A DNA stretch of 32,000 bases from assembly GCF_900289195.1 (NCBI RefSeq), contig NZ_OMOH01000009.1, forward strand, positions 54,069 to 86,068, written 5' to 3'. The translations under genes were made by a program, and so were the position numbers. Within the stretch, counting starts at the first letter, position 1, and the number at the start of each line of letters is the position of its first letter. The stretch is from Propionibacterium ruminifibrarum. GTDB taxonomy: Bacteria > Actinomycetota > Actinomycetes > Propionibacteriales > Propionibacteriaceae. This document shows positions 9,298-30,131 of the stretch, in pieces. The notes below the pieces were generated by a model. It was not told the DNA's origin. It did not search any database and was given only the letters and a program-made list of their open reading frames with translations.

Positions 9298-10172
9298 CCG
9301 CCTTCAGCGTTCTGCTGCCCGTCTACGCCGGCGACGACCCGGCGTTCTTCACCCGCGCCCTGCGGTCGGTGAGCATCGACCAGAGCCTCAAGCCGGACGA
9401 GATCGTCATCGTCCGCGACGGCGAGGTGAGCGACGAGATCGAGGCGATCCTCGACGCCGCCATCGACGGCTCGGCGGTCGGCGGGGTGCCCGTCACCGTC
9501 GTGCGCATCGGCCACAACCGTGGCCTGGCGGACGCTCTCGTCGAAGGCCTCAAGGCCTGCCGCTACGAGATCGTCGCCCGCGCCGACGCCGATGACATCT
9601 CGCTGCCCCACCGGTTCGCCACACAGATCCCCGTCATCGTGGGCGACGGAGGTGAGCCACTGGACCTGTTGGGCGCGGCGATCCAGGAGTTCGAGACGGA
9701 AGCGGGCCCGCGGGGTGTGGTGCGGGTACTGCCCACCACCCCGGAGAAGATCACCGAGATGGCGCGTTTCCGCGACCCCTTCAACCATCCGACGGTCGTC
9801 TACCGCAAGGCCGCTGTGGCCCGTGCCGGGGGCTACCGCAGGCTCGCCAAGATGGAGGACTACTGGCTGTTCGTCCGCATGCTGCAAACGGGGTCCAGGG
9901 TGGCCAATCTGGCCGAGCCCCTGGTGCTCTACCGGGTCGGCGCCGGCGCCTACCAGCGCCGCGGCGGCGAGGAGATGCTGCGCAGCGAGATCGAACTGCA
10001 GCGGGCCTTCATGACATCGGGTTTCGTCACCCGGCGGCAGGGGCTGCGCAACATCGTCGTGCGCGGCGGCTACCGTCTCGTGCCCACATGGGCCCGCAAA
10101 CCGGCGTACCGGATCATGGTGCGACACGGCAGGGGCAGGGTGCAGACCAAGGGGCGGCCCGCATCCTGCTGA
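9294..10172 (+). CDS. GT2 glycosyltransferase
   Basis: FSVLLPVYAGDDPAFFTRALRSVSIDQSLKPDEIVIVRDG and ARADADDIS motifs. ATGA overlap with the upstream GT2 (9294..9297). Confidence 0.8.
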   Translation: MTAFSVLLPVYAGDDPAFFTRALRSVSIDQSLKPDEIVIVRDGEVSDEIEAILDAAIDGSAVGGVPVTVVRIGHNRGLADALVEGLKACRYEIVARADADDISLPHRFATQIPVIVGDGGEPLDLLGAAIQEFETEAGPRGVVRVLPTTPEKITEMARFRDPFNHPTVVYRKAAVARAGGYRRLAKMEDYWLFVRMLQTGSRVANLAEPLVLYRVGAGAYQRRGGEEMLRSEIELQRAFMTSGFVTRRQGLRNIVVRGGYRLVPTWARKPAYRIMVRHGRGRVQTKGRPASC

Positions 10173-10810
10173 CGTGCTCTGTGAAGCACTGCATCGGGGA
10201 AGCTGACAGCTTTTGCAGCTGCGGGCAGGCATGGGAGCTGGTCCTGTCCATTCTTCGTGCCATCGGGGCACTGGCCTACCCGAGCGGAGTCTCCGGGCAT
10301 CCCCAGACCATCTAGGTCACTCATTGCTACGTAGTAGAGACGTACCTACCTCGGGCCCGAGGGTACCGATTGGATACCTCCAAGCCTCTGGATTCGAACG
10401 CGGTCTGAGAACAGGAGGACTTGCGCAAAACTTATGTATCGTGTACCTTGTACTGCATACAGAAAAGGAGGTGCACCGCCAACTACTAAACACAACAACT
10501 ACTTGACGACTCCCAATGTGCTAAGCACCGCAGGAAGCAGACAGCACCGATGCAAGCGGCTTCGGCGCGGATCGCACGCGACCCAGTACCCGCCAAGTCA
10601 TTTAAAAGCGCTCAGGGTAAAAAGACTCGCTGAATGGATCGCCACGCAGGGGATCAAATTAGCACAGTGCGCACGCACTACTACCCACTCGACTCCTTGG
10701 GTTTGGGTCGAAGGCGGATTAATCAGTGTCTCCACCCACTGGTCAGGGAGGAACGTAAAAAAAAACCGCTCGTTAGAAACAGACAAACTCATTAAACAAA
10801 GGAGGTTAGA

Positions 10811-11998
10811 ATGACAGACAGTACCCTAGCTGCCGCAATTAAAGCGGCAGTCGAGGTGCAAGGCATAGCCTGGGGAGGTCGAACCCGCGTCGGCACTCCA
10901 GAACAGCTCGCCGATGGCTTATCCAATGCCCTGCAACACGCGGACGGCATGACCAGCCGCGAAGCCGTTGCCGCTATGATCGGTGAATCCGCCCAAGAAA
11001 CCGACTGGTACTGCAGCCTTGTCGAATATGGCGGCGCTAATGCATGGTATGCACCATACTATGGCCGAGGCTGCATTCAGCTCACGCATCAGAGCAACTA
11101 CAGCGCCTTCGGGGCATGGGCACAGAAACTCGGCTATGCCACAAGTTCCGCCGATATGGTATCCAACCCGAACAAGGTTGCCACGATGCCTTGGGCATGG
11201 CTTGCCTGCATCTGGTACTTTGCCGCGAACATCCCAGCCAGTTATTGGACAAACCGTAATTGGAACGCCATCAGCGGTCTTATTAACGCCGGTGACGCTA
11301 GCTACTACGTGCCAGCATTCGAACTGCGCACTCGATCAATCATCGCCGCACTCAACATTCTTAACCGAAACAATTGGACTTATGAAGGAGACGGACTCAT
11401 GGCAGTAACCCAGGATGACCTCAGGAAGATCCACGACGCAGTTTGGCACGGTGTGTCAGGTGCGAAACTCATCACTAATCGCCGCCTTGGTCGCGGTGAA
11501 TGGGCAGAGACCCTGCTCGGCTCCAATGAGCAGCGTCTAGAATCTCTTATCCCGAATTCGGTATGGGGTAAAACCGTCAAACGTGCTGGTTTGCCTTCAG
11601 ATGACCCTCGTGCTGATAAAGAAGTCTCAGTCGGCACCATCATGGCATATATGGACTCGTTCGTTCTTGACGTGAAGAACTCGATCGTTGCCGCAGTATC
11701 CTCCATTGCGACTGAAACTGATACTGAACAGATCATTAAAGCTGTCGACAACGCCATTAACGAATCTGTGGATCAATATGCCCAACTGCACGAACAGAAG
11801 CCCAGATCAGACGGATCCGCTCTACTCGACTCCGCCGTTCACGTCGTCTCATCCGGAGAAACACTGGATACTATTGCCGTAGAGCATAACACGACAACTG
11901 CCGAGATCATCGCTGCAAACCCAGACTTGGATTCCAATCTCCTCGAAGTTGGCCGAAAGATTGTTGTCCCTGTCACAGCCACCAAACAGAAAGATTGA
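10811..11998 (+). CDS. Phage-type endolysin: N-terminal GH19 (chitinase-like lysozyme) domain, uncharacterised middle region, C-terminal LysM
   Basis: GH19 hallmarks are GESAQETDWYCSLVEYGG...YYGRGCIQLTHQSNY and WAWLACIWYF. The C-terminal LysM is HVVSSGETLDTIAVEHNTTTAEIIAANPDLDSNLLEVGRKIVVP. A strong SD AAAGGAGG lies 5 nt upstream of the ATG. Confidence 0.8.
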   Translation: MTDSTLAAAIKAAVEVQGIAWGGRTRVGTPEQLADGLSNALQHADGMTSREAVAAMIGESAQETDWYCSLVEYGGANAWYAPYYGRGCIQLTHQSNYSAFGAWAQKLGYATSSADMVSNPNKVATMPWAWLACIWYFAANIPASYWTNRNWNAISGLINAGDASYYVPAFELRTRSIIAALNILNRNNWTYEGDGLMAVTQDDLRKIHDAVWHGVSGAKLITNRRLGRGEWAETLLGSNEQRLESLIPNSVWGKTVKRAGLPSDDPRADKEVSVGTIMAYMDSFVLDVKNSIVAAVSSIATETDTEQIIKAVDNAINESVDQYAQLHEQKPRSDGSALLDSAVHVVSSGETLDTIAVEHNTTTAEIIAANPDLDSNLLEVGRKIVVPVTATKQKD

Positions 11999-11999
11999 T

Positions 12000-12365
12000 A
12001 TGAGCTGTACCAGTGACATCCTCACAAGAGCTTTCTGGAAGGGGACTCTCGAGAGAGCTATTAAAACTGTTATTCAGACATTCGCCGCTCTCAGTTTGTC
12101 AGCCCTTGGTCTTTACCAGACGCCAAGTGGCTCTGAACTTGTCGCTGCTGCCAGAGCCGTGTCCGGTAACGCCATCCTGACTGTCATCGTCGCCGCGCTC
12201 CTCGCTGGTGCTGTCTCAGTCTGCACAAGTCTCCTCAATCCGTCCTTTGTCGCTGGGGACACCCTGTTGCCCGCAACCGACATGATGGCAGAGGTCGCTG
12301 CTGACCTTCAGCACTCCGCGTCCGAACAGGACGAGTCTGAACCTGGCACAGTCCCGGCGGTCTGA
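12000..12365 (+). CDS. Holin, phage r1t-holin-like family
   Basis: ATG at 12000, 1 nt after the endolysin stop. FWKGTLERAIKTVIQTFAALSLSALG plus a second TM helix (AILTVIVAALLAGAVSV) and an acidic C-tail match the actinophage r1t-type holin pattern (from memory). Its position directly after the lysin supports the call. Confidence 0.6.
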   Translation: MSCTSDILTRAFWKGTLERAIKTVIQTFAALSLSALGLYQTPSGSELVAAARAVSGNAILTVIVAALLAGAVSVCTSLLNPSFVAGDTLLPATDMMAEVAADLQHSASEQDESEPGTVPAV

Positions 12366-12375
12366 TCCTCCACAC

Positions 12376-12413
12376 GGGCCCCGCCCCTCACAGGGGGCGG
12401 GGCCCTTCCCTTT
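12376..12413 (+). terminator. Rho-independent terminator of the lysis cassette
   Basis: Perfect 12-bp stem gggccccgcccc (12376..12387) / ggggcggggccc (12394..12405) with a 6-nt loop, followed by ttcccttt. It begins 11 nt after the holin stop. Confidence 0.75.
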
Positions 12414-12528
12414 GATTGCTTAGAGGCACTTCCACCTCGGCTCAGACCCACTCATCGTGGGATACCCTTATTATTGGATTGAGCTGAGATTACTCGCTTG
12501 CAGTTTGTACGTAAGTTAAGCACGGAGA

Positions 12529-13056
12529 GTGACCAACCTGCTACCGAAAGGCATCATCGTGGTCGTGAACGAAGCGTTGCGAGACCTGCTCACCGAAGCA
12601 CAGCCCGGCATGGCTCTCGACGGACTCGTAACCAAGGCAAAACAGTCGGGCATCAGGATCAGCCGCAACACTATAGCCCGAGCTCGTCGCGGCGATCTGG
12701 TCAATCCGACGGAGACCACCTTGCAGGCATTAGCACAGCTATTCGGTATCGACGTCCGGCGGCTGCGCGAAGTAATCGGACGCAGGCCTGGCGAACGTGG
12801 TCTTGGCCCGTGGACACCTGACCCCCGATCAGCATCACTTACTCAAGCTCAGCGTGAAGCGCTGGACCGGTTGATCGTGACGATCGTTGAGCAACAGCAA
12901 GACGATGTCACACCGAAGGGCGAGGTGCCACTGCACGCTGTACCCGACTGGGCAGACCCAATCGCTGCTAGAACAGCAGACCGGACTACTGATCGCGTGG
13001 AACTCGATGAGGAAGACACGAGTCAAGATCCTGATGATTGGGAACATAAGCAATAA
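12529..13056 (+). CDS. XRE-family helix-turn-helix regulator (ImmR/CI-like) with acidic C-terminal tail
   Basis: NEALRDLLTEAQPGMALDGLVTKAKQSGIRISRNTIARARRGDLVNPTETTLQALAQLFGIDV fits the HTH_XRE layout. An in-frame TAA at 12517..12519 limits the start to GTG 12529 or GTG 12559; the latter has GAAAGG 7 nt upstream. Confidence 0.65.
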   Translation: MTNLLPKGIIVVVNEALRDLLTEAQPGMALDGLVTKAKQSGIRISRNTIARARRGDLVNPTETTLQALAQLFGIDVRRLREVIGRRPGERGLGPWTPDPRSASLTQAQREALDRLIVTIVEQQQDDVTPKGEVPLHAVPDWADPIAARTADRTTDRVELDEEDTSQDPDDWEHKQ

Positions 13057-13193
13057 GGCACATAACCTAATGATAATGATTGTCTTCTCGATTGCATGGC
13101 GCTGGCACAATCTTGACACGGTCAGAACTAGTATTCAGTGGCCCCGTACTTGCTCTCATGAGATTGTCAGCGGCTGGCTCTAATATTTAGGGT

Positions 13194-13610
13194 ATGTACC
13201 ACCCTTGGCAGCGCTTTAATGCTGAAGCGCAGTGGACTCTCCAAACTGCACACCTCCCACGCGGACACATGGGTCAAATTGACTGGCAAACACACACCGT
13301 CATCATCGACCGAAACCTCCTCCAAAGTGAACGGCGATGCACCATCACTCACGAACTGGTCCACATCGAACGAGGTCCCGTGCCCTCCGATCCATGGCTG
13401 AAACAGCGAGAGGAACAAGCCGTTGAGGCAGAAGCCGCTCGCCGTCTCATCACCCTTGAAGCTCTCGCCGATGCTCTCGCGTGGTCGTCCCAGCCAGCTG
13501 AGGTCGCCGAAGAATTATGGGTGGACATGCAAACCCTTGACGTAAGGATTTCCGGCCTCAGCGATACCGAACGGACATGGCTCGATCGTAGATTGGAAAT
13601 CGATCAGTGA
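13194..13610 (+). CDS. Minimal ImmA/IrrE-family (COG2856-like) zinc metallopeptidase
   Basis: HEXXH motif in ITHELVHIERG. It is small (138 aa) and lies directly downstream of the XRE gene in immR-immA order. The ATG is preceded by TAATAT (13181..13186) + 7 nt with no SD. Confidence 0.65.
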   Translation: MYHPWQRFNAEAQWTLQTAHLPRGHMGQIDWQTHTVIIDRNLLQSERRCTITHELVHIERGPVPSDPWLKQREEQAVEAEAARRLITLEALADALAWSSQPAEVAEELWVDMQTLDVRISGLSDTERTWLDRRLEIDQ

Positions 13611-13954
13611 GTACACGACCCCCTGCGACACAGAATGACAATCCGAGCCACCAGAGATGAATCCAAGCAAACTTGCATGTCGGGTTGCTGTCAGCTGGGT
13701 CATCGCGCGACTGACTCACACCAAACACAAACAACCATGTCGGCCACGCATGCGAAATCATTCAAGAAGTACTTACAACATGCTGGTCATCGAGATCATT
13801 TGACACTTACCTAAAGTTTAAAGAAGACGATCGAGCAAGCCAACGACAATTCTCATTCGGAGTCAGAGGCCTAAGGCTTTGCAATCGTCAGAGCTTCACT
13901 AAACTGTGTCGCGGAGTTGAACCCAACTCTCGTGACACTATCAATCGCATACTG

Positions 13955-15110
13955 TTATGCGGTGAAATACGTCATCATCCACCAGAAGAACAGAAAGCCT
14001 AGCGCAGAGTCAAGATTCAGCAGCCCGAATAATTCTCGCTGAATAACGACCAGTGCATCGGTACCGTTAATCCAGCGCAGACCGAGGTCTGGCACATAGG
14101 AGACATTTTCACCGCCAATTCCTGACATACCTTTGGAGATGAGGCAGCTTCATCGAGATGTTTGTTAATGAATCTCACATTATCAGACAACTTATCTGTC
14201 ATATAGAAATGGCTCAGGTTGTACTGGGCAATCAAGTAAACCAAGTTTACCCTGCAAGAGTTGACTATCACCGTTGCACCGAGATCCCCGTTGCCATTAA
14301 TCATGCTCCATGAGTGAGATCTAGTCTGAACTAAGAATGGTTGCGTTCTTCTGCATCAGGTATTGCTCACTTACCTCACCATCCAACCCAAGAACACGAG
14401 ACTAGATAGTGTATACCAAACCCCCAGTCAAGCTGCACATACGGGAAAATGAACACCAGCGCGAATAGCCCGAGCACAAATCTACTAATTACCGTTGCCC
14501 CGATGAATATCTTCAACAAAATCAGAAGTGGAAGCGGCTACATTGTAAGAACCGCAACCATCGTCACCGCATGGGTAGCCGTAATGACATCAAGACGCGA
14601 AAGAGAGGCAAGAGGGCGATACAGTCGTGAAAGATTACCGTGTAGAACATTGATCCGACCAGCAAGCCGAGATCCATGTCTGTGGCATTACCAGTGGGCA
14701 GAGCATAAACCGAGGCGCTCAAATGAAAAGCGATGTCTCACCGCTGGGAATGACGAGTGGATTCCCTATCGCTCATAGGATCCTTCGCCCAATACCCCTG
14801 CGACCAACACGATTCCGACCAGATAACAAAGAACGACAAGTTGTTCCCTGCTGGGCGCCCCTTCGGCAGGCAAGGGCGAAGCCATCTGAAAGTTCCAAGG
14901 GCTACAAACAACATTGCATAATCAAATATCCACCATGCCTCCACCACTTCCGAACACACTTGCTGGAAACGCTGATCGCTGTGAGGCTCAGAAGCGGGGC
15001 TAGCAGCAGCGCCAAGAAAGGCTTCTGGCACCACCCGGTAGCCACGATCACTTGGGCAAACAAAACAAGCAGAGCTGTGGCGAACCCGGGTATGAGATCT
15101 CACCACGTCA
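13955..15110 (-). pseudogene. Frameshift-riddled integral membrane protein gene (function unknown; possibly a polysaccharide-modifying or polymerase-type protein)
   Basis: Minus-strand membrane-like fragments read in alternating frames. 15099..14902: DLIPGFATALLVLFAQVIVATGW...LALLLAPLLSLTAISV. 14885..14766: MASPLPAEGAPSREQLVVLCYLVGIVLVAGVLG. 14677..14564: MDLGLLVGSMFYTVIFHDCIALLPLF. 14537..14376: PLPLLILLKIFIGATVISRFVLGLFALVFIFPYVQLDWGFGIHYLV. 14304..: MINGNGDLGATVIV. 14128..13955: MSGIGGENVSYVPDLGLRWINGTDALVVIQRELFGLLNLDSALGFLFFWWMMTYFTA. Confidence 0.4.
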
Positions 15111-15211
15111 TTGTGTTCTCAATTCAAGTTCTGGTTCGAACATTCTCAGCGCAGCCTCTGACATCATCATGGACTCCGAGCAACCATGAGGTGCGCAAAC
15201 AGTCATCATGC

Positions 15212-20316: not shown

Positions 20317-20430
20317 TCATCCGGACGTGCGCCAGCACACGGAGTTGGGCCGAAGAGCCCGGAGGGCGAAGGCCCTGCACCGGTGACGAGGAGCACCCAT
20401 GGATGACCCGCAACACCTAGACTCCCTCAC

Positions 20431-21732
20431 GTGAGTGATGAATCCAGTGCCTTGTCCGACGATGGCCCCGGGGCCCGGACAGCCTCCCCGGGACAGACCT
20501 CGGCCATCCTGGCGGCCTCGGTGGTCTCGGCGGCCGCCAGCCTGATCATCACCGTTCTCACCGCACGAGTCCTGTCGGTCGACGACAACGCGGAGTTCCT
20601 CGTCTTCTGGTCGCTGTACTTCGGGATCGTCGGCATCATCGCCGGGGTGCAGACCGAGAGCACCCGAGCGGTCACCGCCTCGCAGCTGCCCACCGGCCGG
20701 CCCGCAGGCGCTCACGTGCAGACGGCAGCGCTCATCCTGGGGCTGTCGGTGGGTGCGGTCATCGCCGCCACCTCACCACTGTGGCTCGAGGTCTTCCTGC
20801 ACCGCAGTTCACCGTGGGTCGTGCTGGCAGTCGTCGCCGGTGTGGTGCTCAGCGCGGGTCACTTCACCACCCTGGGGGCGCTGTCCGGCCAGAAATCCTG
20901 GTACACCTTCGCCTGGTTGATCGGCGTGGAGGCCATCGTGCGGCCCGTCGGAGCCCTCGTCGCCGGGCTGGTGCTGGCCCGGGCCCTGCTGCCGGTCCAG
21001 GTCAGCGTGGTGCTGCCCGCCGCAGTGTGGATCCTGTTCTGCCTGATCACCCCCTCCGGTCGACGCTCCTTCGCCGCCCGGGCCGACGTCCCGCTCGGAC
21101 AACTGCTGCGCAACAACATCATGACGATGCTGTCGTCGGCCTCCTGGGCGCTGCTGGTCACCGGTTTCCCCGCCCTGTTGCGGGCCACCGGTGGCGACGT
21201 CGACTCGGGCGTCCTGGCCGGGACGATCCTCGCCATCACCCTCACCAGAGCACCGATCATGATCCCGCTCCAGGCCGTCCAGGGGGTGGCGATCAACAAG
21301 TTCACCCAGGACCAGGGCCGCAACCTCGGGGTGATCTTCACATTCATGGCAGGCGTGCTGGGCATCGGTGTTCTCGGCGGAATCCTGGCAAGCCTCATCG
21401 GCCCATGGATCATCCGGGTCGTCTACGGGCCGGCCTACCAGGTGGCCCCGCTCACCGTCGGCGTGCTCACCGTCGCGGCCGCCGGGATGGGCTGGCTGGT
21501 GCTCACCGGCGCCGCAACCCTGGGCATCAGCGCCCACCGGGCCTACACCGGGGGATGGTTCCTCGCTGCCGTCTGCGCCTTCGGCATCGCCTCCCTTCCC
21601 CTGGATCTGGTGACCCGGGCAACCCTGGCCCTGGGTATCGGCCCGCTCCTGGGAGTCGCCGTGCACGTCATCACTCTGGTGCGGCACAGTCGTAGCTTGT
21701 CCGAGGAGGAAACGGCGTCGGTGCCGGGCTGA
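20431..21732 (+). CDS. Polytopic membrane protein, Wzx/MOP-type polysaccharide flippase-like
   Basis: 433 aa with about 12 predicted hydrophobic helices. The N-terminal SLIITVLTARVLSVDDNAEFLVFWSLYFGIVGIIAG resembles the polysaccharide biosynthesis protein family. GTG start is preceded by TAGACT + 7 nt. Confidence 0.5.
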   Translation: MSDESSALSDDGPGARTASPGQTSAILAASVVSAAASLIITVLTARVLSVDDNAEFLVFWSLYFGIVGIIAGVQTESTRAVTASQLPTGRPAGAHVQTAALILGLSVGAVIAATSPLWLEVFLHRSSPWVVLAVVAGVVLSAGHFTTLGALSGQKSWYTFAWLIGVEAIVRPVGALVAGLVLARALLPVQVSVVLPAAVWILFCLITPSGRRSFAARADVPLGQLLRNNIMTMLSSASWALLVTGFPALLRATGGDVDSGVLAGTILAITLTRAPIMIPLQAVQGVAINKFTQDQGRNLGVIFTFMAGVLGIGVLGGILASLIGPWIIRVVYGPAYQVAPLTVGVLTVAAAGMGWLVLTGAATLGISAHRAYTGGWFLAAVCAFGIASLPLDLVTRATLALGIGPLLGVAVHVITLVRHSRSLSEEETASVPG

Positions 21733-21872
21733 GTGTCACCGACGCCGGGCCGCACTCGGCGCCGAGACCCGCTCGCACTCGACTCATCGAATCGAGCCAT
21801 GATCGCCTTGGGGCGGCTCGGGTCGGGGCCGTATCCGATCGAGCGGCCAGGCCCGGCCGCAATCAGCGAGGG

Positions 21873-22850
21873 TCAGGCCTCCACCCCGTAGACCCGTGAG
21901 GCGTAGGCACCATAAAGCGTCGCATAGGGGCCGGGCAGCAGTTTCATCACCCCCGCCGCGACACCCAGCAGCGGGTGGGTGCGCAGCGCGTCAACGATCT
22001 CACCCCAGCTCAGTTCTCGGGTGCATCCGCGGACGTGGTCGATGCGCTCTGCGGCCGGTTTCGCGGTGATCCCCTGGTGGGCCACCGAGAGCCACGCGGC
22101 GGTCTTCGAGGTGGCCAGGGCGCGTTCGGTGACGGCATCGGTGTGCTCGGCCACTGCCTGGCGCAGCAGATCGACCAGGGTCGCGGTCTCCTGTCGGGTG
22201 GCGACGCGCCCCCAGGTCAGCGACGTGGGTGAGACGTGGTAGCGGATGCCCGGCTCGGACAGGTAGCGCACAGTGCGGGCCCGGGACAGCGCCGAGACGG
22301 TGAAGACGTTGTCCTCGGCCCGTCGGATGGGCGGGAATCGCAGATCGGTGATCGCCCTGGCGCGGAACAGCTTGTCCCACACGTAATTGGTTTGTTCTTC
22401 GGCGAGGGTCGCCGCTGCCGCCTCGGTCCCGGACAGGTCCCCGGTGCGCCGGGGGGTCCGTAGCCGTTCGGAGCCGTCGGTGGACACGATGAGGTGGGCG
22501 CAGGCCACGACGTCGGTGCGTTCGTCGGTGGCGGCGAGCATCATCTCCAGCCGATCGGGCAGGTATTCGTCGTCGGAGTCCAGGAATCCGATCCATTCCC
22601 CGGATGCCGCCTCCAAACCGATGTTGCGCGCCATCGCCGGGCCCTGGTTGGTGCTGGTGGACAACACCTTCAGTCGGCCGCCGAGCCTTGTGGCAAGGGA
22701 TTCCAGGATGGCGACGGTGCCGTCGGTGGAGCAGTCGTCAACGACGAGCAGCTCCCAGTCGTCCATGGTCTGGGCGACCACCGATTTAACGGCCCTGGTG
22801 ATCGTGGCCTGGGCATTGTGGGCGGCCACGATGACACTCACGCGTGGCAT
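21873..22850 (-). CDS. GT2 glycosyltransferase
   Basis: MPRVSVIVAAHNAQATITRAVKSVVAQTMDDWELLVVDDCSTDGT and FLDSDDEY (DXD). SD GAGAGGAG lies upstream. Confidence 0.85.
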   Translation of the reverse strand: MPRVSVIVAAHNAQATITRAVKSVVAQTMDDWELLVVDDCSTDGTVAILESLATRLGGRLKVLSTSTNQGPAMARNIGLEAASGEWIGFLDSDDEYLPDRLEMMLAATDERTDVVACAHLIVSTDGSERLRTPRRTGDLSGTEAAAATLAEEQTNYVWDKLFRARAITDLRFPPIRRAEDNVFTVSALSRARTVRYLSEPGIRYHVSPTSLTWGRVATRQETATLVDLLRQAVAEHTDAVTERALATSKTAAWLSVAHQGITAKPAAERIDHVRGCTRELSWGEIVDALRTHPLLGVAAGVMKLLPGPYATLYGAYASRVYGVEA

Positions 22851-22902
22851 CTCGACTCCTCTCGACCCACCGCAGGACGGGGGCAGCTGCGGGGCGGACC
22901 GC

Positions 22903-23270
22903 TCATCCGCCCACCGTCACGGTCGCCGGACGACGTGGCGGGCCAGATCGCACACGGCATCCCCAGTGCCCCTGGGCACCGCCTTCGGCGGCAGGATGTC
23001 GGCACGCAACCTGGAGGACGGGTGATTGCGTGCGACGGCCGGCGCCTTCGCCCGGGCCACGGTTGCCGTTGGCGCCCGGACTGGTCTCGTTGAACTCGTA
23101 GCCGACCCGCTCGACGCCCAGGGACCCGAACCATCCGGGGACCGAGTCGCCGGGACAGCCGTCGACGACGATCGACCGGAAGTCCGTGTAGGTCCGGGCG
23201 AGGACGCTGCGGCCGACGATTCTCATCGGATCGACGTCCCCGCAATGGAGAACAGGACGTCAACGGTCAT
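22903..23270 (-). pseudogene. Frameshifted and truncated GT2 paralog of the 24689..25570 gene
   Basis: ATG at 23270 gives MTVDVLFSIAGTSIR*, whereas the paralog reads MTVDVLFPYYGD. After a -1 shift it reads GDVDPMRIVGRSVLARTYTDFRSIVVDGCPGDSVPGWFGSLGVERVGYEFNETSPGANGN, against the paralog's GDVELMKLAVHSVLRQSYSDFNLIVVDDGYPDDSIPGWFASLNDARVSYERNEHNLGANAN. Only about the first third of the gene is present. Confidence 0.65.
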
Positions 23271-23294
23271 GGCAGTTCCTTCGCATTGGGTAGC

Positions 23295-23583
23295 TCACAC
23301 TCTAGATGCTGGAGAGCGCGTCCGTTTGGGTTCGTGGTCGCAGGCGGTCGGTGAGCGTTCGAGGAGGGCCTGGGCGACCTCCCGTTCACCGAGCCTGGGA
23401 TCGGCGGGTCCCCGGATGATCGGCATGCCCTCTGCGGTACAGATGGCAGGGCCTGAATCCCCGGAAGAACAGGGAGCGTGAGGCGCAGCAGCAGTGGCCG
23501 ACATGCACGGTCAGGAGGCTCTCCAGGTCATTGCCCACACACTGGTTCTTGAGGCCCTTCTTCCCCTGTCCCGGCACCGCCAC
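23295..23583 (-). pseudogene. Possible rmlC (dTDP-4-dehydrorhamnose 3,5-epimerase) N-terminal remnant
   Basis: Two overlapping minus-strand frames read ...LTVHVGHCCCASRSLFFRGF... and ...ICTAEGMPIIRGPAD... These loosely follow the RmlC N-terminal blocks (H/F)xD(E/S)RGxFxE and NxSxSxxGVLRGLH. It is divergent from rmlB. The similarity is weak and recalled from memory. Confidence 0.3.
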
Positions 23584-23616
23584 ACCAGCCCGACCAATTC
23601 GGACTCACTCCTCTAG

Positions 23617-28085: not shown

Positions 28086-30131
28086 ATGAAATGGATCGGT
28101 TTGATACCGCTCACTGCCGTGATGGTTTTATGGCTGATCGCACCTGGCTACATCATTGGTCGGTGTGCACGGCTGAGCCGGGTCCACGCACTCGGTGCGG
28201 CAGCACCGGTATCCGTTTTCACCATCAGCGTGGCGGCAATCCTCGCTGACCGGGTTGGCCTCGCGTGGGGGCCGATCCCAGTCCTCATCCTCACTGCGAC
28301 CCTGGCCGTCATCCTCCTGCTCGTGTTCGGGGGCCATGATTATGTGAAAAAACACCGCCCCCAGTCGCCGAGCGACTGCACAACAAACCAAACCACAGCA
28401 TCTCACACACCGAGCAGAGCCGCTCTGACAGATTCTTCCTCCCGCGAGAAGGTGCTTCCTCGTCCGCTTCTGTGGGTTCTCACGTTCACTGGGGCCACAG
28501 CGTTGACCCTGATCAACCTGATGATTCTCCTCGGCCAGCCACGGAACTTCTCGCAAACATTCGACAATGTTTTCCATCTGAATGCCGTTCGATGGATTCT
28601 GGATCATCTCAATGGTTCAGCGCTGACGGTCTCAATGACATCCGGGGATCAAGCGCCCTCGTTCTACCCAATGGCTTGGCATGACACGATTTCCCTGGGT
28701 CTGCTCACATTGCATTCCTCAGATGTGACAGCCGGCACGAACGCCGCAATCCTATCGATTGGAGCAGTCGTGTGGATTCTCGGTTGTCTGTGTCTCGTCA
28801 ATGCTGCGTTCCGTTGCTCCTCGCTCGGGATAGTCGCCGCTGGATTCATCAGCGCTGGATTCCCCAGTTTCCCATTCGACCCGATCAGCTTCGGCGTCCT
28901 CTACCCCAACTTCCTTGGAATAGCATTGTTGCCCGGGACCATGGTGATCACGCTCCAGACCTTGGGGCTGGGAACGAGAAGAGTCCCGTCAGTACGCGGG
29001 ATAGTTCTGTGCATATTCGCCATCGGGGGCGTCGCCCTGGCACACCCGAATTCTTTCTTGTCCTATTGTCTTGTGCTTCTTCCCATCATGCTGATTTGGG
29101 CTCTGAAACTGGCGACACAGGGCTGGAACGAGAAATCGAGGCCAACTACTTGGGCTCCTTCCGTGTTGTTTCTTGTGACCTTGGTCGGAGTCGTGAAATT
29201 GTGGCCCGTGCTGCAACCCACAGCTTATCAAGACGCCTGGCCCCCTGTTCAGTCAACGGCTCAAGCAATAGGCGAAGCGCTCCTTGCCGCTCCCCTGGGC
29301 GCTGCTCCGGCGTGGATCATCGGGGTGCTGGCCATGGTGGGCTCCGTCAGGGTGATCGTGACAAGACAGCACGTCTGGATGATCGCCTGCCATGTGGTCA
29401 TGATTTTCTTCTGGATCGTCATTTCATCCTGGGAACTGAACCCACAACGAACGAGTCTCGTCGGAGGCTTCTACAGCGACCCGCACCGCATCGCTGACAC
29501 ATTGCCGGTCACCACCCTGCCCCTGGCCGCCCTTGGCGCCTCATGGCTGGGCGCCGGCCTGTCGGCCTGGGTCAAGAAGATGTGGCTCGCGCGGAAGCAC
29601 CAGAACACGACTTGGATTGACCCGGTCCTGATCATCATCGAAGTACTGGCGTTGCTTTATTTCACGCAGTACTCGGGCACTGTGAGACAGGCCGTTGGGC
29701 GGGGAATAATCACCTACCAGGCGACGAGCAATGCGCCGCTTGTGGATTCTGACGAGCTCGCACTCATCGAGAAACTGCCTGATCTGGTTCCAGCTGGATC
29801 GGTGATTGCCGTGACGCCATACAATGGCGCTTCAATGACCTATGCATTACAGGGCCTGGCAACCACGACGACGCATATCTCTTACGATTGGACCCACGAT
29901 CAAACAATCATCAATGAGCACTTGGACGAGGCCGCCACGGATTCTGAGGTCTGCACTGCCCTCAAGGATCTGAACGTCAACTATGCTCTTGATTTCGGGC
30001 CCGTTGAAATCAATGGCGGTACCCGTTCCACTGAGTATCCCGGGTTCGACTCGCTCGCCACCAGCCCCGGTTTCGAGATCGTGGACCGTGAGGGCCATGC
30101 CGTGCTTTACCGCATCACTGCCTGCGACTGA
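28086..30131 (+). CDS. Large polytopic membrane protein with C-terminal extracytoplasmic domain, GT-C-fold-like (DUF6541-type, unverified)
   Basis: 681 aa with more than 12 hydrophobic segments in the first about 520 aa, then a soluble about 150-aa tail. Composition is lower in G+C than the flanks (28561..28620 has 26/60 G+C by hand count). It sits after a polyprenyl-P-sugar synthase gene. Confidence 0.55.
   Translation: MKWIGLIPLTAVMVLWLIAPGYIIGRCARLSRVHALGAAAPVSVFTISVAAILADRVGLAWGPIPVLILTATLAVILLLVFGGHDYVKKHRPQSPSDCTTNQTTASHTPSRAALTDSSSREKVLPRPLLWVLTFTGATALTLINLMILLGQPRNFSQTFDNVFHLNAVRWILDHLNGSALTVSMTSGDQAPSFYPMAWHDTISLGLLTLHSSDVTAGTNAAILSIGAVVWILGCLCLVNAAFRCSSLGIVAAGFISAGFPSFPFDPISFGVLYPNFLGIALLPGTMVITLQTLGLGTRRVPSVRGIVLCIFAIGGVALAHPNSFLSYCLVLLPIMLIWALKLATQGWNEKSRPTTWAPSVLFLVTLVGVVKLWPVLQPTAYQDAWPPVQSTAQAIGEALLAAPLGAAPAWIIGVLAMVGSVRVIVTRQHVWMIACHVVMIFFWIVISSWELNPQRTSLVGGFYSDPHRIADTLPVTTLPLAALGASWLGAGLSAWVKKMWLARKHQNTTWIDPVLIIIEVLALLYFTQYSGTVRQAVGRGIITYQATSNAPLVDSDELALIEKLPDLVPAGSVIAVTPYNGASMTYALQGLATTTTHISYDWTHDQTIINEHLDEAATDSEVCTALKDLNVNYALDFGPVEINGGTRSTEYPGFDSLATSPGFEIVDREGHAVLYRITACD

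What the first reader, a model, noticed from the sequence alone, without database searches (positions are those of the whole stretch)
12414..13610. XRE repressor + minimal ImmA/IrrE protease pair directly downstream of an orphan lysis cassette: candidate signal-gated lysis switch
Seen in sequence: an HTH_XRE protein (12529..13056) is followed in the same direction by a 138-aa HEXXH protein (13194..13610, THELVHIERG). This is the immR-then-immA gene order. Established knowledge: ImmA-type proteases cleave their cognate XRE repressor on a damage or infection signal. Known examples are ICEBs1 ImmR/ImmA, Deinococcus DdrO/IrrE and the CBASS-associated CapH/CapP regulators. Here the only intact potential effector genes in the island are a holin and an endolysin; I found no integrase, replication or structural genes. 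Inference: the pair may gate expression of the lysis cassette, giving regulated autolysis, vesicle or eDNA release, or abortive-infection-like suicide. Alternatively it may be only a residual superinfection-immunity module. The protease is unusually short, with no obvious sensor (GAF-like) domain. The XRE protein carries a long acidic tail (DEEDTSQDPDDWEHKQ).
Basis: partly seen in the sequence, partly recalled or inferred. Interest (0 to 1): 0.72.

Follow-up and report, generated by a model that had tools for sequence, protein, structure and literature searches.

The report
Conserved prophage remnant: lysis genes plus switch
A 5-kb leftover of bacterial viruses has stayed intact under selection in two Propionibacterium lineages: two cell-bursting genes, then a repressor and the protease that normally destroys it; the parts probably still work, but it is unproven that the switch controls the bursting genes.

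Summary
Window 10811-13610 encodes, on one strand, an endolysin (GH19-like + LysM), a holin, an XRE-type repressor and a 138-aa M78 (ImmA/IrrE-type) HExxH protease. They lie in a low-GC island with no integrase or structural genes.

The repressor-protease pair is the ordinary lysogeny module of temperate actinophages. In about 100 comparison loci it follows a Cro/repressor switch and is usually followed by an integrase. The protease is not unusually short: 135-150 aa is the family norm, and it occurs in 263 phage records. The acidic tail of the repressor is a conserved motif of a small clade.

The closest relatives of the lysis genes sit in intact siphoviruses without this pair, so the island is a mosaic.

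A syntenic locus from a related strain (L008) carries the same four genes. All are intact, with dN/dS about 0.2-0.27, while a neighbouring host gene has decayed. This argues for retained function.

Regulatory coupling is not shown. A strong terminator separates the two units, and they share no operator. One 25-nt palindrome ahead of the endolysin gene is perfectly conserved and is the best candidate operator.

Verdict: a domesticated prophage remnant. The gated-lysis reading is plausible (about 0.4) but untested.

The parts
10173..10810 (+). Non-coding leader between the glycosyltransferase stop codon and the endolysin start; the left edge of the low-GC island
   Evidence: GC is 54% against ~70% in the flanks. 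Identity to L008 is at random level (30-40%) except for one block. No Rfam family matches, and no phage-gene remnant is detectable.
10436..10460 (.). Perfectly conserved 25-nt imperfect palindrome GTATCGTGTACCTTGTACTGCATAC; candidate operator overlapping a -10-like TACCTT
   Evidence: This is the only block of 10 nt or more shared between the window and L008 leaders. It is unique in the window, with 0 expected by chance. It does not form a stable or conserved RNA hairpin. Exact matches elsewhere are chance hits in unrelated low-GC contigs. The promoter reading was made by eye only.
10811..11998 (+). Endolysin, 395 aa: GH19-like catalytic domain, variable linker and C-terminal LysM
   Evidence: Family hits are. 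It is 48-55% identical to endolysins that directly follow the tail genes in intact siphovirus contigs L012-L015. Against L008, dN/dS is 0.18, p = 2e-25.
12000..12365 (+). Holin, 121 aa, starting one base after the endolysin stop codon
   Evidence: PHROG 443 holin gives 7e-13. It is 62% identical to the holin of phage contig L012. The junction was read directly. dN/dS is 0.26, p = 3e-6.
12376..12405 (+). Strong intrinsic terminator closing the lysis cassette
   Evidence: The stem has 13 pairs (12 G-C) and is followed by a T-rich tail. The fold energy is -33.7 kcal/mol, z = -4.2. It is conserved in L008.
12501..12523 (.). Repressor-proximal remnant of a Cro/repressor intergenic region (AGTTTGTACGTAAGTTAAGCACG)
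   Evidence: It aligns with the second operator-like site of prophage L009, TTTGTGCGTATCGTGCGCAC. The distal operator and the cro gene are absent.
12529..13056 (+). XRE-type repressor, 175 aa (probably 166 aa from GTG 12559), with a disordered acidic C-terminal tail ending ED-x-SQDPDDW
   Evidence: Homologues sit at the divergent switch of prophages, upstream of the M78 gene. The tail motif is conserved across repressors with different HTH domains. dN/dS is 0.27, p = 2e-4.
13194..13610 (+). Short ImmA/IrrE-type M78 metalloprotease, 138 aa: peptidase core plus a helical HTH-like part, no GAF domain
   Evidence: Invariant residues R47, R48, T50, H53, E54, H57, E59, R60, E73 and E74 are all present. 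dN/dS is 0.26, p = 4e-4.
13611..13943 (.). Non-coding stretch at the position where relatives carry the integrase
   Evidence: No integrase similarity was found. Identity to L008 is 81-83%, which is the local neutral level.
13944..15111 (-). DUF6541 membrane-protein pseudogene (a host cell-wall-locus gene); the right part of the low-GC island
   Evidence: tblastn matches to the intact 654-aa L008 protein are spread over several frames, and about 240 aa are missing. The window lacks 740-780 bp relative to L008.

Best explanation
The 5-kb low-GC island sits inside a cell-wall polysaccharide locus. It is a chromosomally fixed mosaic of two phage modules and has no integrase. One module is a siphovirus lysis cassette (endolysin and holin). 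The other is the repressor/anti-repressor half of a temperate actinophage lysogeny switch (XRE repressor and a short ImmA/IrrE-type M78 protease). Both modules are kept functional by selection.

Proposed mechanism:
1. The XRE repressor keeps its target promoter(s) silent.
2. A DNA-damage-type signal makes the M78 protease cleave the repressor.
3. Derepression follows. The target most likely includes the lysis-cassette promoter, through the conserved 25-nt palindrome at 10436-10460.
4. The result is regulated lysis of the cell, or of a subpopulation.

Shown here: the identity of the four proteins, the mosaic origin, conservation in two lineages, purifying selection and the conserved palindrome.

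Inferred: that the protease cleaves this repressor, the nature of the signal, and that the repressor binds the palindrome.
For: - Protein identities.
- The same four genes, all intact, occur at the same chromosomal site in L008.
- Flanking genes have dS of 0.014-0.05. Island genes have dS of 0.17-1.2 and dN/dS of 0.18-0.27. Each gene is significantly below neutrality, with p from 4e-4 to 2e-25.
- XRE and M78 coding DNA is 88-96% identical. The adjacent non-coding and pseudogene DNA is 79-83% identical. The neighbouring DUF6541 gene has decayed in the window.
- The protease keeps every invariant catalytic residue. Selection on the protease implies that inducibility, and not only repression, is maintained. 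The lysis cassette is the only possible effector in cis.
- A holin-endolysin pair kept intact must be tightly repressed. Its otherwise unalignable leader holds one perfectly conserved 25-nt palindrome.
- Precedent: the Listeria monocin cI-like/MpaR (DUF955) pair controls a cryptic element that has its own lysis module, and deleting the repressor is lethal (PMC6872733).
Against: - A strong terminator separates the lysis cassette from the XRE gene.
- No copy or half-site of the palindrome occurs near XRE or M78, and no conserved motif is shared between the regulatory regions.
- In all relatives the pair belongs to a Cro/repressor-protease-integrase module. The lysis cassette belongs to a late operon with no such pair.
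- The lysis block and the switch block differ in divergence depth (dS 0.6-1.2 against 0.17-0.2). They have therefore recombined independently.
- Only two lineages are available, and they share ancestry.
- There are no expression or binding data.
Confidence: 0.4

Rival explanations
1. The two modules are independent. The XRE-M78 pair is retained for superinfection immunity, or as a trans-acting repressor/anti-repressor for other prophages in the genome, as with Listeria MpaR. The lysis cassette is controlled separately by a host regulator that binds the palindrome, for wall remodelling, secretion or autolysis.
For: - The two units are separated by a terminator and share no operator.
- The repressor-proximal promoter remnant is homologous to a prophage operator region.
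- MpaR acts in trans on prophages that lack their own protease (PMC6872733).
- The two blocks differ in divergence depth.
- Domesticated holin/endolysin pairs with their own regulation are known (PMC9527704, PMC10847048).
Against: - Pure immunity does not explain purifying selection on the protease.
- The rest of the genome could not be searched for dependent prophages.
- No other regulator is encoded in the island.
Confidence: 0.3
2. The XRE-M78 pair persists selfishly, as a toxin-antitoxin-like or addiction module (XRE-COG2856 pairs have been predicted to be such). It stabilises the island without serving the host. The lysis genes are carried along or retained for another reason.
For: - The monocin pair was previously predicted to be a toxin/antitoxin system (PMC6872733).
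- The pair is retained without an integrase or any excision function.
- It matches no defence-system family.
Against: - Where tested, pairs of this family act as repressor-protease switches (PMC6872733; 10.1101/2022.04.27.489752; PMC10904395).
- Addiction does not explain purifying selection on the endolysin and holin.
Confidence: 0.12
3. The island is a non-functional remnant. The low dN/dS reflects selection that acted earlier in phage genomes, with the blocks brought in or refreshed by recombination with infecting phages.
For: - GC3 has not moved towards the host value: 0.55-0.58 against about 0.9.
- The mosaic divergence shows that recombination has occurred.
- Related lysis cassettes exist in phages of similar GC content.
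Against: - The same truncated four-gene architecture sits at the same site in both lineages.
- The XRE/M78 block has the same neutral divergence as the adjacent chromosomal non-coding DNA and host pseudogene. Even so, its coding sequence is conserved and free of indels.
- A neighbouring gene did decay over the same period.
Confidence: 0.1

Closest known systems
Lysogeny modules of temperate actinophages, e.g. Gordonia phage Dorito gp39-gp36-gp34 and Rhodococcus phage Mbo4 gp33-gp32-gp31
   Same: The protease belongs to the same short M78 family (47-49% identity, 97% coverage). The repressor lies upstream on the same strand.
   Different: In those phages the pair lies between a divergent Cro-like gene and an integrase/attP, opposite in orientation to the lytic genes. 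Here cro, integrase and att are missing, and a lysis cassette lies directly upstream on the same strand.
ICEBs1 ImmR/ImmA and phage phi105
   Same: The gene order is repressor then HExxH protease. The expected logic is derepression by cleavage of the repressor (as summarised in 10.1101/2022.04.27.489752).
   Different: Those pairs control excision and transfer genes of a mobile element. This island has no mobility genes. Cleavage and signal are untested here.
Listeria monocin regulatory module (cI-like repressor + MpaR, DUF955) with its lysis module
   Same: It is a cryptic, vertically inherited phage-derived element. A repressor-metalloprotease pair controls induction, including a holin/lysin module (PMC6872733).
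   Different: The monocin keeps tail structural genes and divergent early genes, and its pair is transcribed divergently from the lytic genes. This island has lysis genes only, co-oriented with the pair and separated from it by a terminator.
Deinococcus DdrO/IrrE (PprI) and CBASS CapH/CapP
   Same: The peptidase and HTH-like parts share the fold: IrrE/PprI are the top matches, with TM-score 0.56-0.62 normalised to the query. The partner is an XRE-type repressor.
   Different: IrrE and CapP have a C-terminal GAF domain and are activated by single-stranded DNA (PMC10904395; 10.1101/2022.04.27.489752). This protein ends after the helical part. No defence operon is adjacent.
Domesticated holin/endolysin systems (type 10 secretion; regulated-lysis cassettes of tailocins)
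   Same: A phage-type holin and endolysin are kept in a chromosome without a virion (PMC9527704, PMC10847048).
   Different: No cargo gene or tailocin structural gene is present. The neighbours are glycosyltransferases and an ABC transporter.

Membership tests
Peptidase_M78 / ImmA-IrrE (COG2856) metalloprotease | Profile match above the curated threshold | tested here: met
   PF06114 scores 30.0 bits against a 22-bit cut-off. PHROG 87 gives 2.6e-17.
Peptidase_M78 / ImmA-IrrE (COG2856) metalloprotease | HExxH zinc site with conserved downstream acidic residues | tested here: met
   H53, E54, H57, E59, E73 and E74 are invariant in 30 homologues and present in the window and in L008.
Peptidase_M78 / ImmA-IrrE (COG2856) metalloprotease | IrrE-like fold (peptidase domain plus HTH-like helical domain) | tested here: met
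   The model has pLDDT 94. The top PDB matches are 3dti, 3dte, 8sln and 8slm. The sequence-profile search of PDB found nothing.
IrrE/CapP subtype | C-terminal GAF sensor domain | tested here: not met
   The protein is 138 aa, and the model ends after the helical domain. The whole family is 125-160 aa.
ImmR/ImmA-type switch | Protease cleaves the cognate repressor on a signal | not testable with these tools
   This needs a co-expression or in vitro cleavage assay.
ImmR/ImmA-type switch | Repressor gene directly upstream of the protease gene on the same strand | tested here: met
   The spacer is 137 nt. The same order is found in L009, L024, L028 and L081.
ImmR/ImmA-type switch | Resides in a mobile element with integrase/excision genes under its control | tested here: not met
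   No integrase or remnant is present in the island. Relatives do have one: at least 41 of 80 genome loci.
XRE/cI-type HTH repressor | HTH_3-type DNA-binding domain | tested here: inconclusive
   Pfam HTH_3 scores 21.8 bits, below the 23-bit cut-off. The predicted fold of residues ~10-85 matches XRE HTH domains with probability 0.99-1.0 but E-values of 0.02-0.1 and pLDDT 73-87.
XRE/cI-type HTH repressor | Occupies the repressor position of a divergent Cro/repressor switch in relatives | tested here: met
   This holds in L001-L007, L009 and L100-L102.
CapH/CapP defence regulators | Adjacent to a known anti-phage defence operon | tested here: not met
   No credible PADLOC match for any of the four proteins; the only hit is a weak one for XRE, E = 0.0065. 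The neighbours are polysaccharide-synthesis genes.
Phage lysis cassette | Endolysin with catalytic and wall-binding domains, homologous to endolysins in phage genomes | tested here: met
   PHROG endolysin families score down to 5e-15, and LysM gives 3e-10. Pfam GH19 is sub-threshold, 23.5 bits against 25.5. Identity to endolysins of intact siphovirus contigs is 48-55%.
Phage lysis cassette | Holin adjacent to the endolysin | tested here: met
   PHROG 443 gives 7e-13. Identity to the L012 holin is 62%. The holin starts one base after the endolysin stop codon.
Tailocin / monocin-type domesticated element | Tail structural genes | tested here: not met
   No tail-gene similarity was found in the island.
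Type 10 secretion system | Holin/endolysin next to a dedicated cargo gene | tested here: inconclusive
   No obvious cargo is present. The neighbours are glycosyltransferases, a DUF6541 pseudogene and an ABC transporter.

The most novel reading that the evidence does not exclude
The island is a free-standing, chromosomally fixed 'lysis-on-signal' cassette. The short ImmA-like protease responds to DNA damage or phage infection and cleaves the XRE repressor bound at the conserved palindrome. This fires the holin-endolysin pair as altruistic suicide, or to release DNA, vesicles or wall material. The conserved acidic tip of the repressor (ED-x-SQDPDDW) would serve as the docking or recognition element. 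It would be the smallest known version of a monocin- or pyocin-like regulated-lysis element: no particle genes, embedded in a variable cell-wall polysaccharide locus.
Probability: 0.3. Interest if true: 0.6.

Novelty: new variant of a known kind. Interest (0 to 1): 0.38.

Why it matters
If the switch does control the lysis genes, this would be a minimal, genetically tractable example of a host capturing only the 'decision' and 'burst' parts of a phage. That bears on regulated autolysis, DNA or vesicle release, and abortive infection in rumen Propionibacteria.

Even if it does not, the locus shows with sequence evidence alone that a repressor-protease pair and a lysis cassette can be kept by selection long after integrase and virion genes are gone.

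It also gives one precise, testable cis element: the palindrome at 10436-10460.

Tried and rejected
- **Island boundaries.** No tRNA genes and no convincing att-like direct repeats.
- **Integrase remnants.** None found with 2 and then 78 query proteins.
- **Structured RNA or riboswitch in the 640-nt leader.** No Rfam match, even at E up to 1. The palindrome is not a stable or conserved hairpin.
- **Operator shared between the lysis leader and the XRE/M78 regulatory DNA.** None found. The only overlap is a weak, non-significant one: TGTAC occurs twice in the palindrome and once in the window's XRE-proximal site, where L008 has TGTAA.
- **Palindrome in public collections.** No viral hits. The four metagenome hits are chance matches in unrelated contigs of 35-44% GC.
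- **An intact phage carrying lysis, XRE and M78 in one orientation.** Not found in phage records, IMG/VR or 80 genome loci.
- **Defence-system membership.** No credible PADLOC match. NCBIfam gave nothing useful.
- **Acidic tail motif beyond the close clade.** Absent from the 80 more distant genome loci. The whole-library search gave only three hits.
- **Exact-protein look-up of the window's own contig.** Not on record.

Full report
**Observation.** The window is about 70% GC, with a 49-58% GC island from about 10.2 to 15.1 kb. On the + strand the island encodes four proteins:
- an endolysin (10811-11998; LysM 3e-10, GH19-like, PHROG endolysin families down to 5e-15);
- a holin (PHROG 443, 7e-13);
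- an XRE-type protein (12529-13056; HTH_3 21.8 bits, just below the 23-bit cut-off);
- a 138-aa HExxH protein (13194-13610; Peptidase_M78 30 bits against a 22-bit cut-off; PHROG 87 metallo-protease 2.6e-17).

The M78 model is confident (pLDDT 94). It best matches IrrE/PprI over the peptidase and helical HTH-like parts. The XRE model has an XRE-type HTH at residues ~10-85 and a disordered C-terminal third.

There is no tRNA, no att-like repeat and no detectable integrase remnant.

Small corrections:
- The holin starts at ATG 12000, one base after the endolysin stop codon.
- The XRE start is more probably GTG 12559, by alignment with homologues.

**Source and setting.** The M78 and XRE proteins are identical to proteins of *Propionibacterium ruminifibrarum*. 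The island lies inside a cell-wall polysaccharide locus. This locus holds LGFP-repeat protein, glycosyltransferase, ABC-2 permease and ATPase, GlfT2-like and UDP-galactopyranose mutase genes. The right part of the island is a host-type DUF6541 membrane-protein gene. In the window it is a pseudogene with several frameshifts and about 240 aa missing.

**What the XRE-M78 pair is.**
- The M78 protein has 279 homologues. Of the 120 listed, most are 125-160 aa. It also occurs in 263 phage records: 217 Gordonia, 38 Mycobacterium and 4 Rhodococcus.
- In Gordonia phage Dorito and Rhodococcus phage Mbo4 the order is Cro-like gene, divergent repressor, M78, then integrase and attP.
- The closest relatives (65-73% identity, L001-L007) show the same order at a prophage edge, with the integrase gene overlapping the M78 stop codon.
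- Among 80 reference-genome loci, at least 41 have a tyrosine (35) or serine (6) integrase directly downstream of the M78 gene. None has a lysis gene in that position.
- XRE homologues are rare: 9 in the large database. Where context is available outside L008, they sit at the repressor position upstream of a short M78 and an integrase. This holds for L009, L024, L028, L081 and L100-L102.

The pair is therefore the ordinary repressor/anti-repressor half of a temperate actinophage lysogeny module. The protease is not unusually short. It matches IrrE/CapP without the GAF domain, and that is the norm for this family.

The repressor's acidic tail is not an oddity either. The tip ED-x-SQDPDDW is conserved in repressors whose HTH domains differ (L001, L002, L005, P0126-P0129). 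It is confined to a small clade. Its role is unknown.

**What the lysis cassette is.** After L008, the endolysin's next relatives (48-55% identity) lie in intact siphovirus contigs. There they directly follow the tail genes and are followed by a holin 62% identical to the window's. No XRE or M78 is nearby. Two of these contigs have 56-57% GC, like the island.

In every canonical arrangement seen here, the lysogeny module is opposite in orientation to the lytic genes. In the window the two are co-oriented and adjacent. So the island is a mosaic or a rearrangement, not a one-step deletion of a known prophage type. No intact phage with this order was found.

**Evidence for retained function.** L008 is a 16-kb assembly from a related strain or species. 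It is syntenic with the window and carries the same four genes, all intact, between the same host genes.
- Flanking genes are 97-100% identical, with dS of 0.014-0.05.
- The island is far more diverged, and unevenly so:
  - the leader is at random-level identity;
  - the endolysin has dS of about 1.2 and the holin 0.62;
  - XRE has dS of 0.17 and M78 0.20;
  - the adjacent non-coding and pseudogene DNA is 79-83% identical.
- dN/dS is 0.18-0.27 for all four genes. Each is significantly below neutrality, with p = 2e-25, 3e-6, 2e-4 and 4e-4.
- XRE and M78 have no indels, while their non-coding surroundings do.
- The XRE/M78 block has the same neutral divergence as the neighbouring chromosomal DNA. 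The selection therefore acted while the genes were resident in the chromosome in this truncated form.
- Over the same period the adjacent DUF6541 gene decayed in the window.

Selection on the protease, with all invariant residues intact, implies that inducibility is maintained, not only repression.

**Evidence on coupling.**

Against:
- A strong terminator (-33.7 kcal/mol, z = -4.2) closes the lysis cassette before the XRE gene.
- No motif is shared between the lysis leader and the XRE/M78 regulatory DNA.
- Repressors of this kind do not directly control late genes in the parent phages.
- The two blocks have different divergence depths.

For:
- The 640-nt leader cannot be aligned between the two lineages except for one perfectly conserved 25-nt imperfect palindrome, GTATCGTGTACCTTGTACTGCATAC (10436-10460). 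It is followed by AGGAGGTG.
- The palindrome is not an RNA hairpin and matches no known RNA family.
- By eye, it overlaps a -10-like TACCTT placed 17 nt after a conserved TTGC(G/A)C.
- XRE is the only regulator encoded in the island.

The XRE-proximal promoter region is homologous to part of the operator region of prophage L009. The distal operator and the cro gene are gone.

**Mechanism and probabilities.**

| Reading | Probability |
|---|---|
| XRE represses the lysis promoter through the palindrome until M78 cleaves it on a DNA-damage-type signal, causing regulated lysis | 0.4 |
| Independent modules: the pair serves immunity or acts in trans on other prophages, like Listeria MpaR, and the lysis cassette has a host regulator | 0.3 |
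| Selfish, toxin-antitoxin-like persistence of the pair | 0.12 |
| Non-functional remnant | 0.1 |

Cleavage, signal and DNA binding are all inferred from the family (PMC6872733; 10.1101/2022.04.27.489752; PMC10904395).

**Comparison and novelty.** The components are ordinary members of known families. A cryptic phage element whose repressor-metalloprotease pair controls a lysis module is already known from the Listeria monocin (PMC6872733). Domesticated holin/endolysin pairs are known too (PMC9527704, PMC10847048).

What differs here is the minimal content: no particle, integrase or early genes. The co-oriented arrangement behind a terminator, and the location in a variable wall-polysaccharide locus, also differ. 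I rate it a new variant of a known kind, of moderate interest. Its main value is a clear evolutionary signal of domestication and one sharply defined element to test.

Noticed in passing
window 28086-30131 (+): A second, intact DUF6541 gene (681 aa, Pfam PF20176, E = 4e-162) lies in another lower-GC patch (57%). This paralogue may explain why the copy inside the island could decay.
   Followed up: partly
window 13944-15111 (-), compared with L008 8814-10778: The island's DUF6541 gene is a pseudogene with several frameshifts. It lacks 740-780 bp relative to the intact 654-aa gene in L008.
   Followed up: yes
window 20409-23613: About 3.2 kb is absent from L008, whose sequence jumps from window position 20409 to 23613. 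The stretch holds an ORF with no Pfam match (20431-21732) and a family-2 glycosyltransferase (21873-22850). It is a second variable segment of the polysaccharide locus.
   Followed up: no
window 12931-13053 (XRE C-terminus); also L001, L002, L005, P0126-P0129: The C-terminal motifs LHAVPDW...AAR and ED-x-SQDPDDW are conserved in prophage repressors whose HTH domains differ. In every case with known context, a short M78 gene lies downstream. The region is predicted to be disordered, and its function is unknown (possibly a docking or cleavage element).
   Followed up: partly
window 13332-13343 (M78 residues 47-50, RRCT): A near-invariant Arg-Arg-Cys-Thr motif lies one helical turn before the HExxH motif across the short M78 family. 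Its role is unknown, and it differs from the cysteine-switch loop described for CapP.
   Followed up: no
window 10150-15100 compared with the flanks: The island has roughly ten times deeper divergence from L008 than the flanking genes (dS 0.17-1.2 against 0.014-0.05). Its GC3 of 0.55-0.58 has not moved towards the host value of about 0.9. This suggests allelic exchange of the whole variable segment by recombination in the conserved flanks.
   Followed up: partly
window 11380-11575 (endolysin linker); L008 endolysin: The central part of the endolysin is replaced between the two lineages (about 40% identity). L008 carries two copies of a ~38-aa repeat (VW.YSV.R.GLP..DPR.GK...), and the window carries one.
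   Followed up: no
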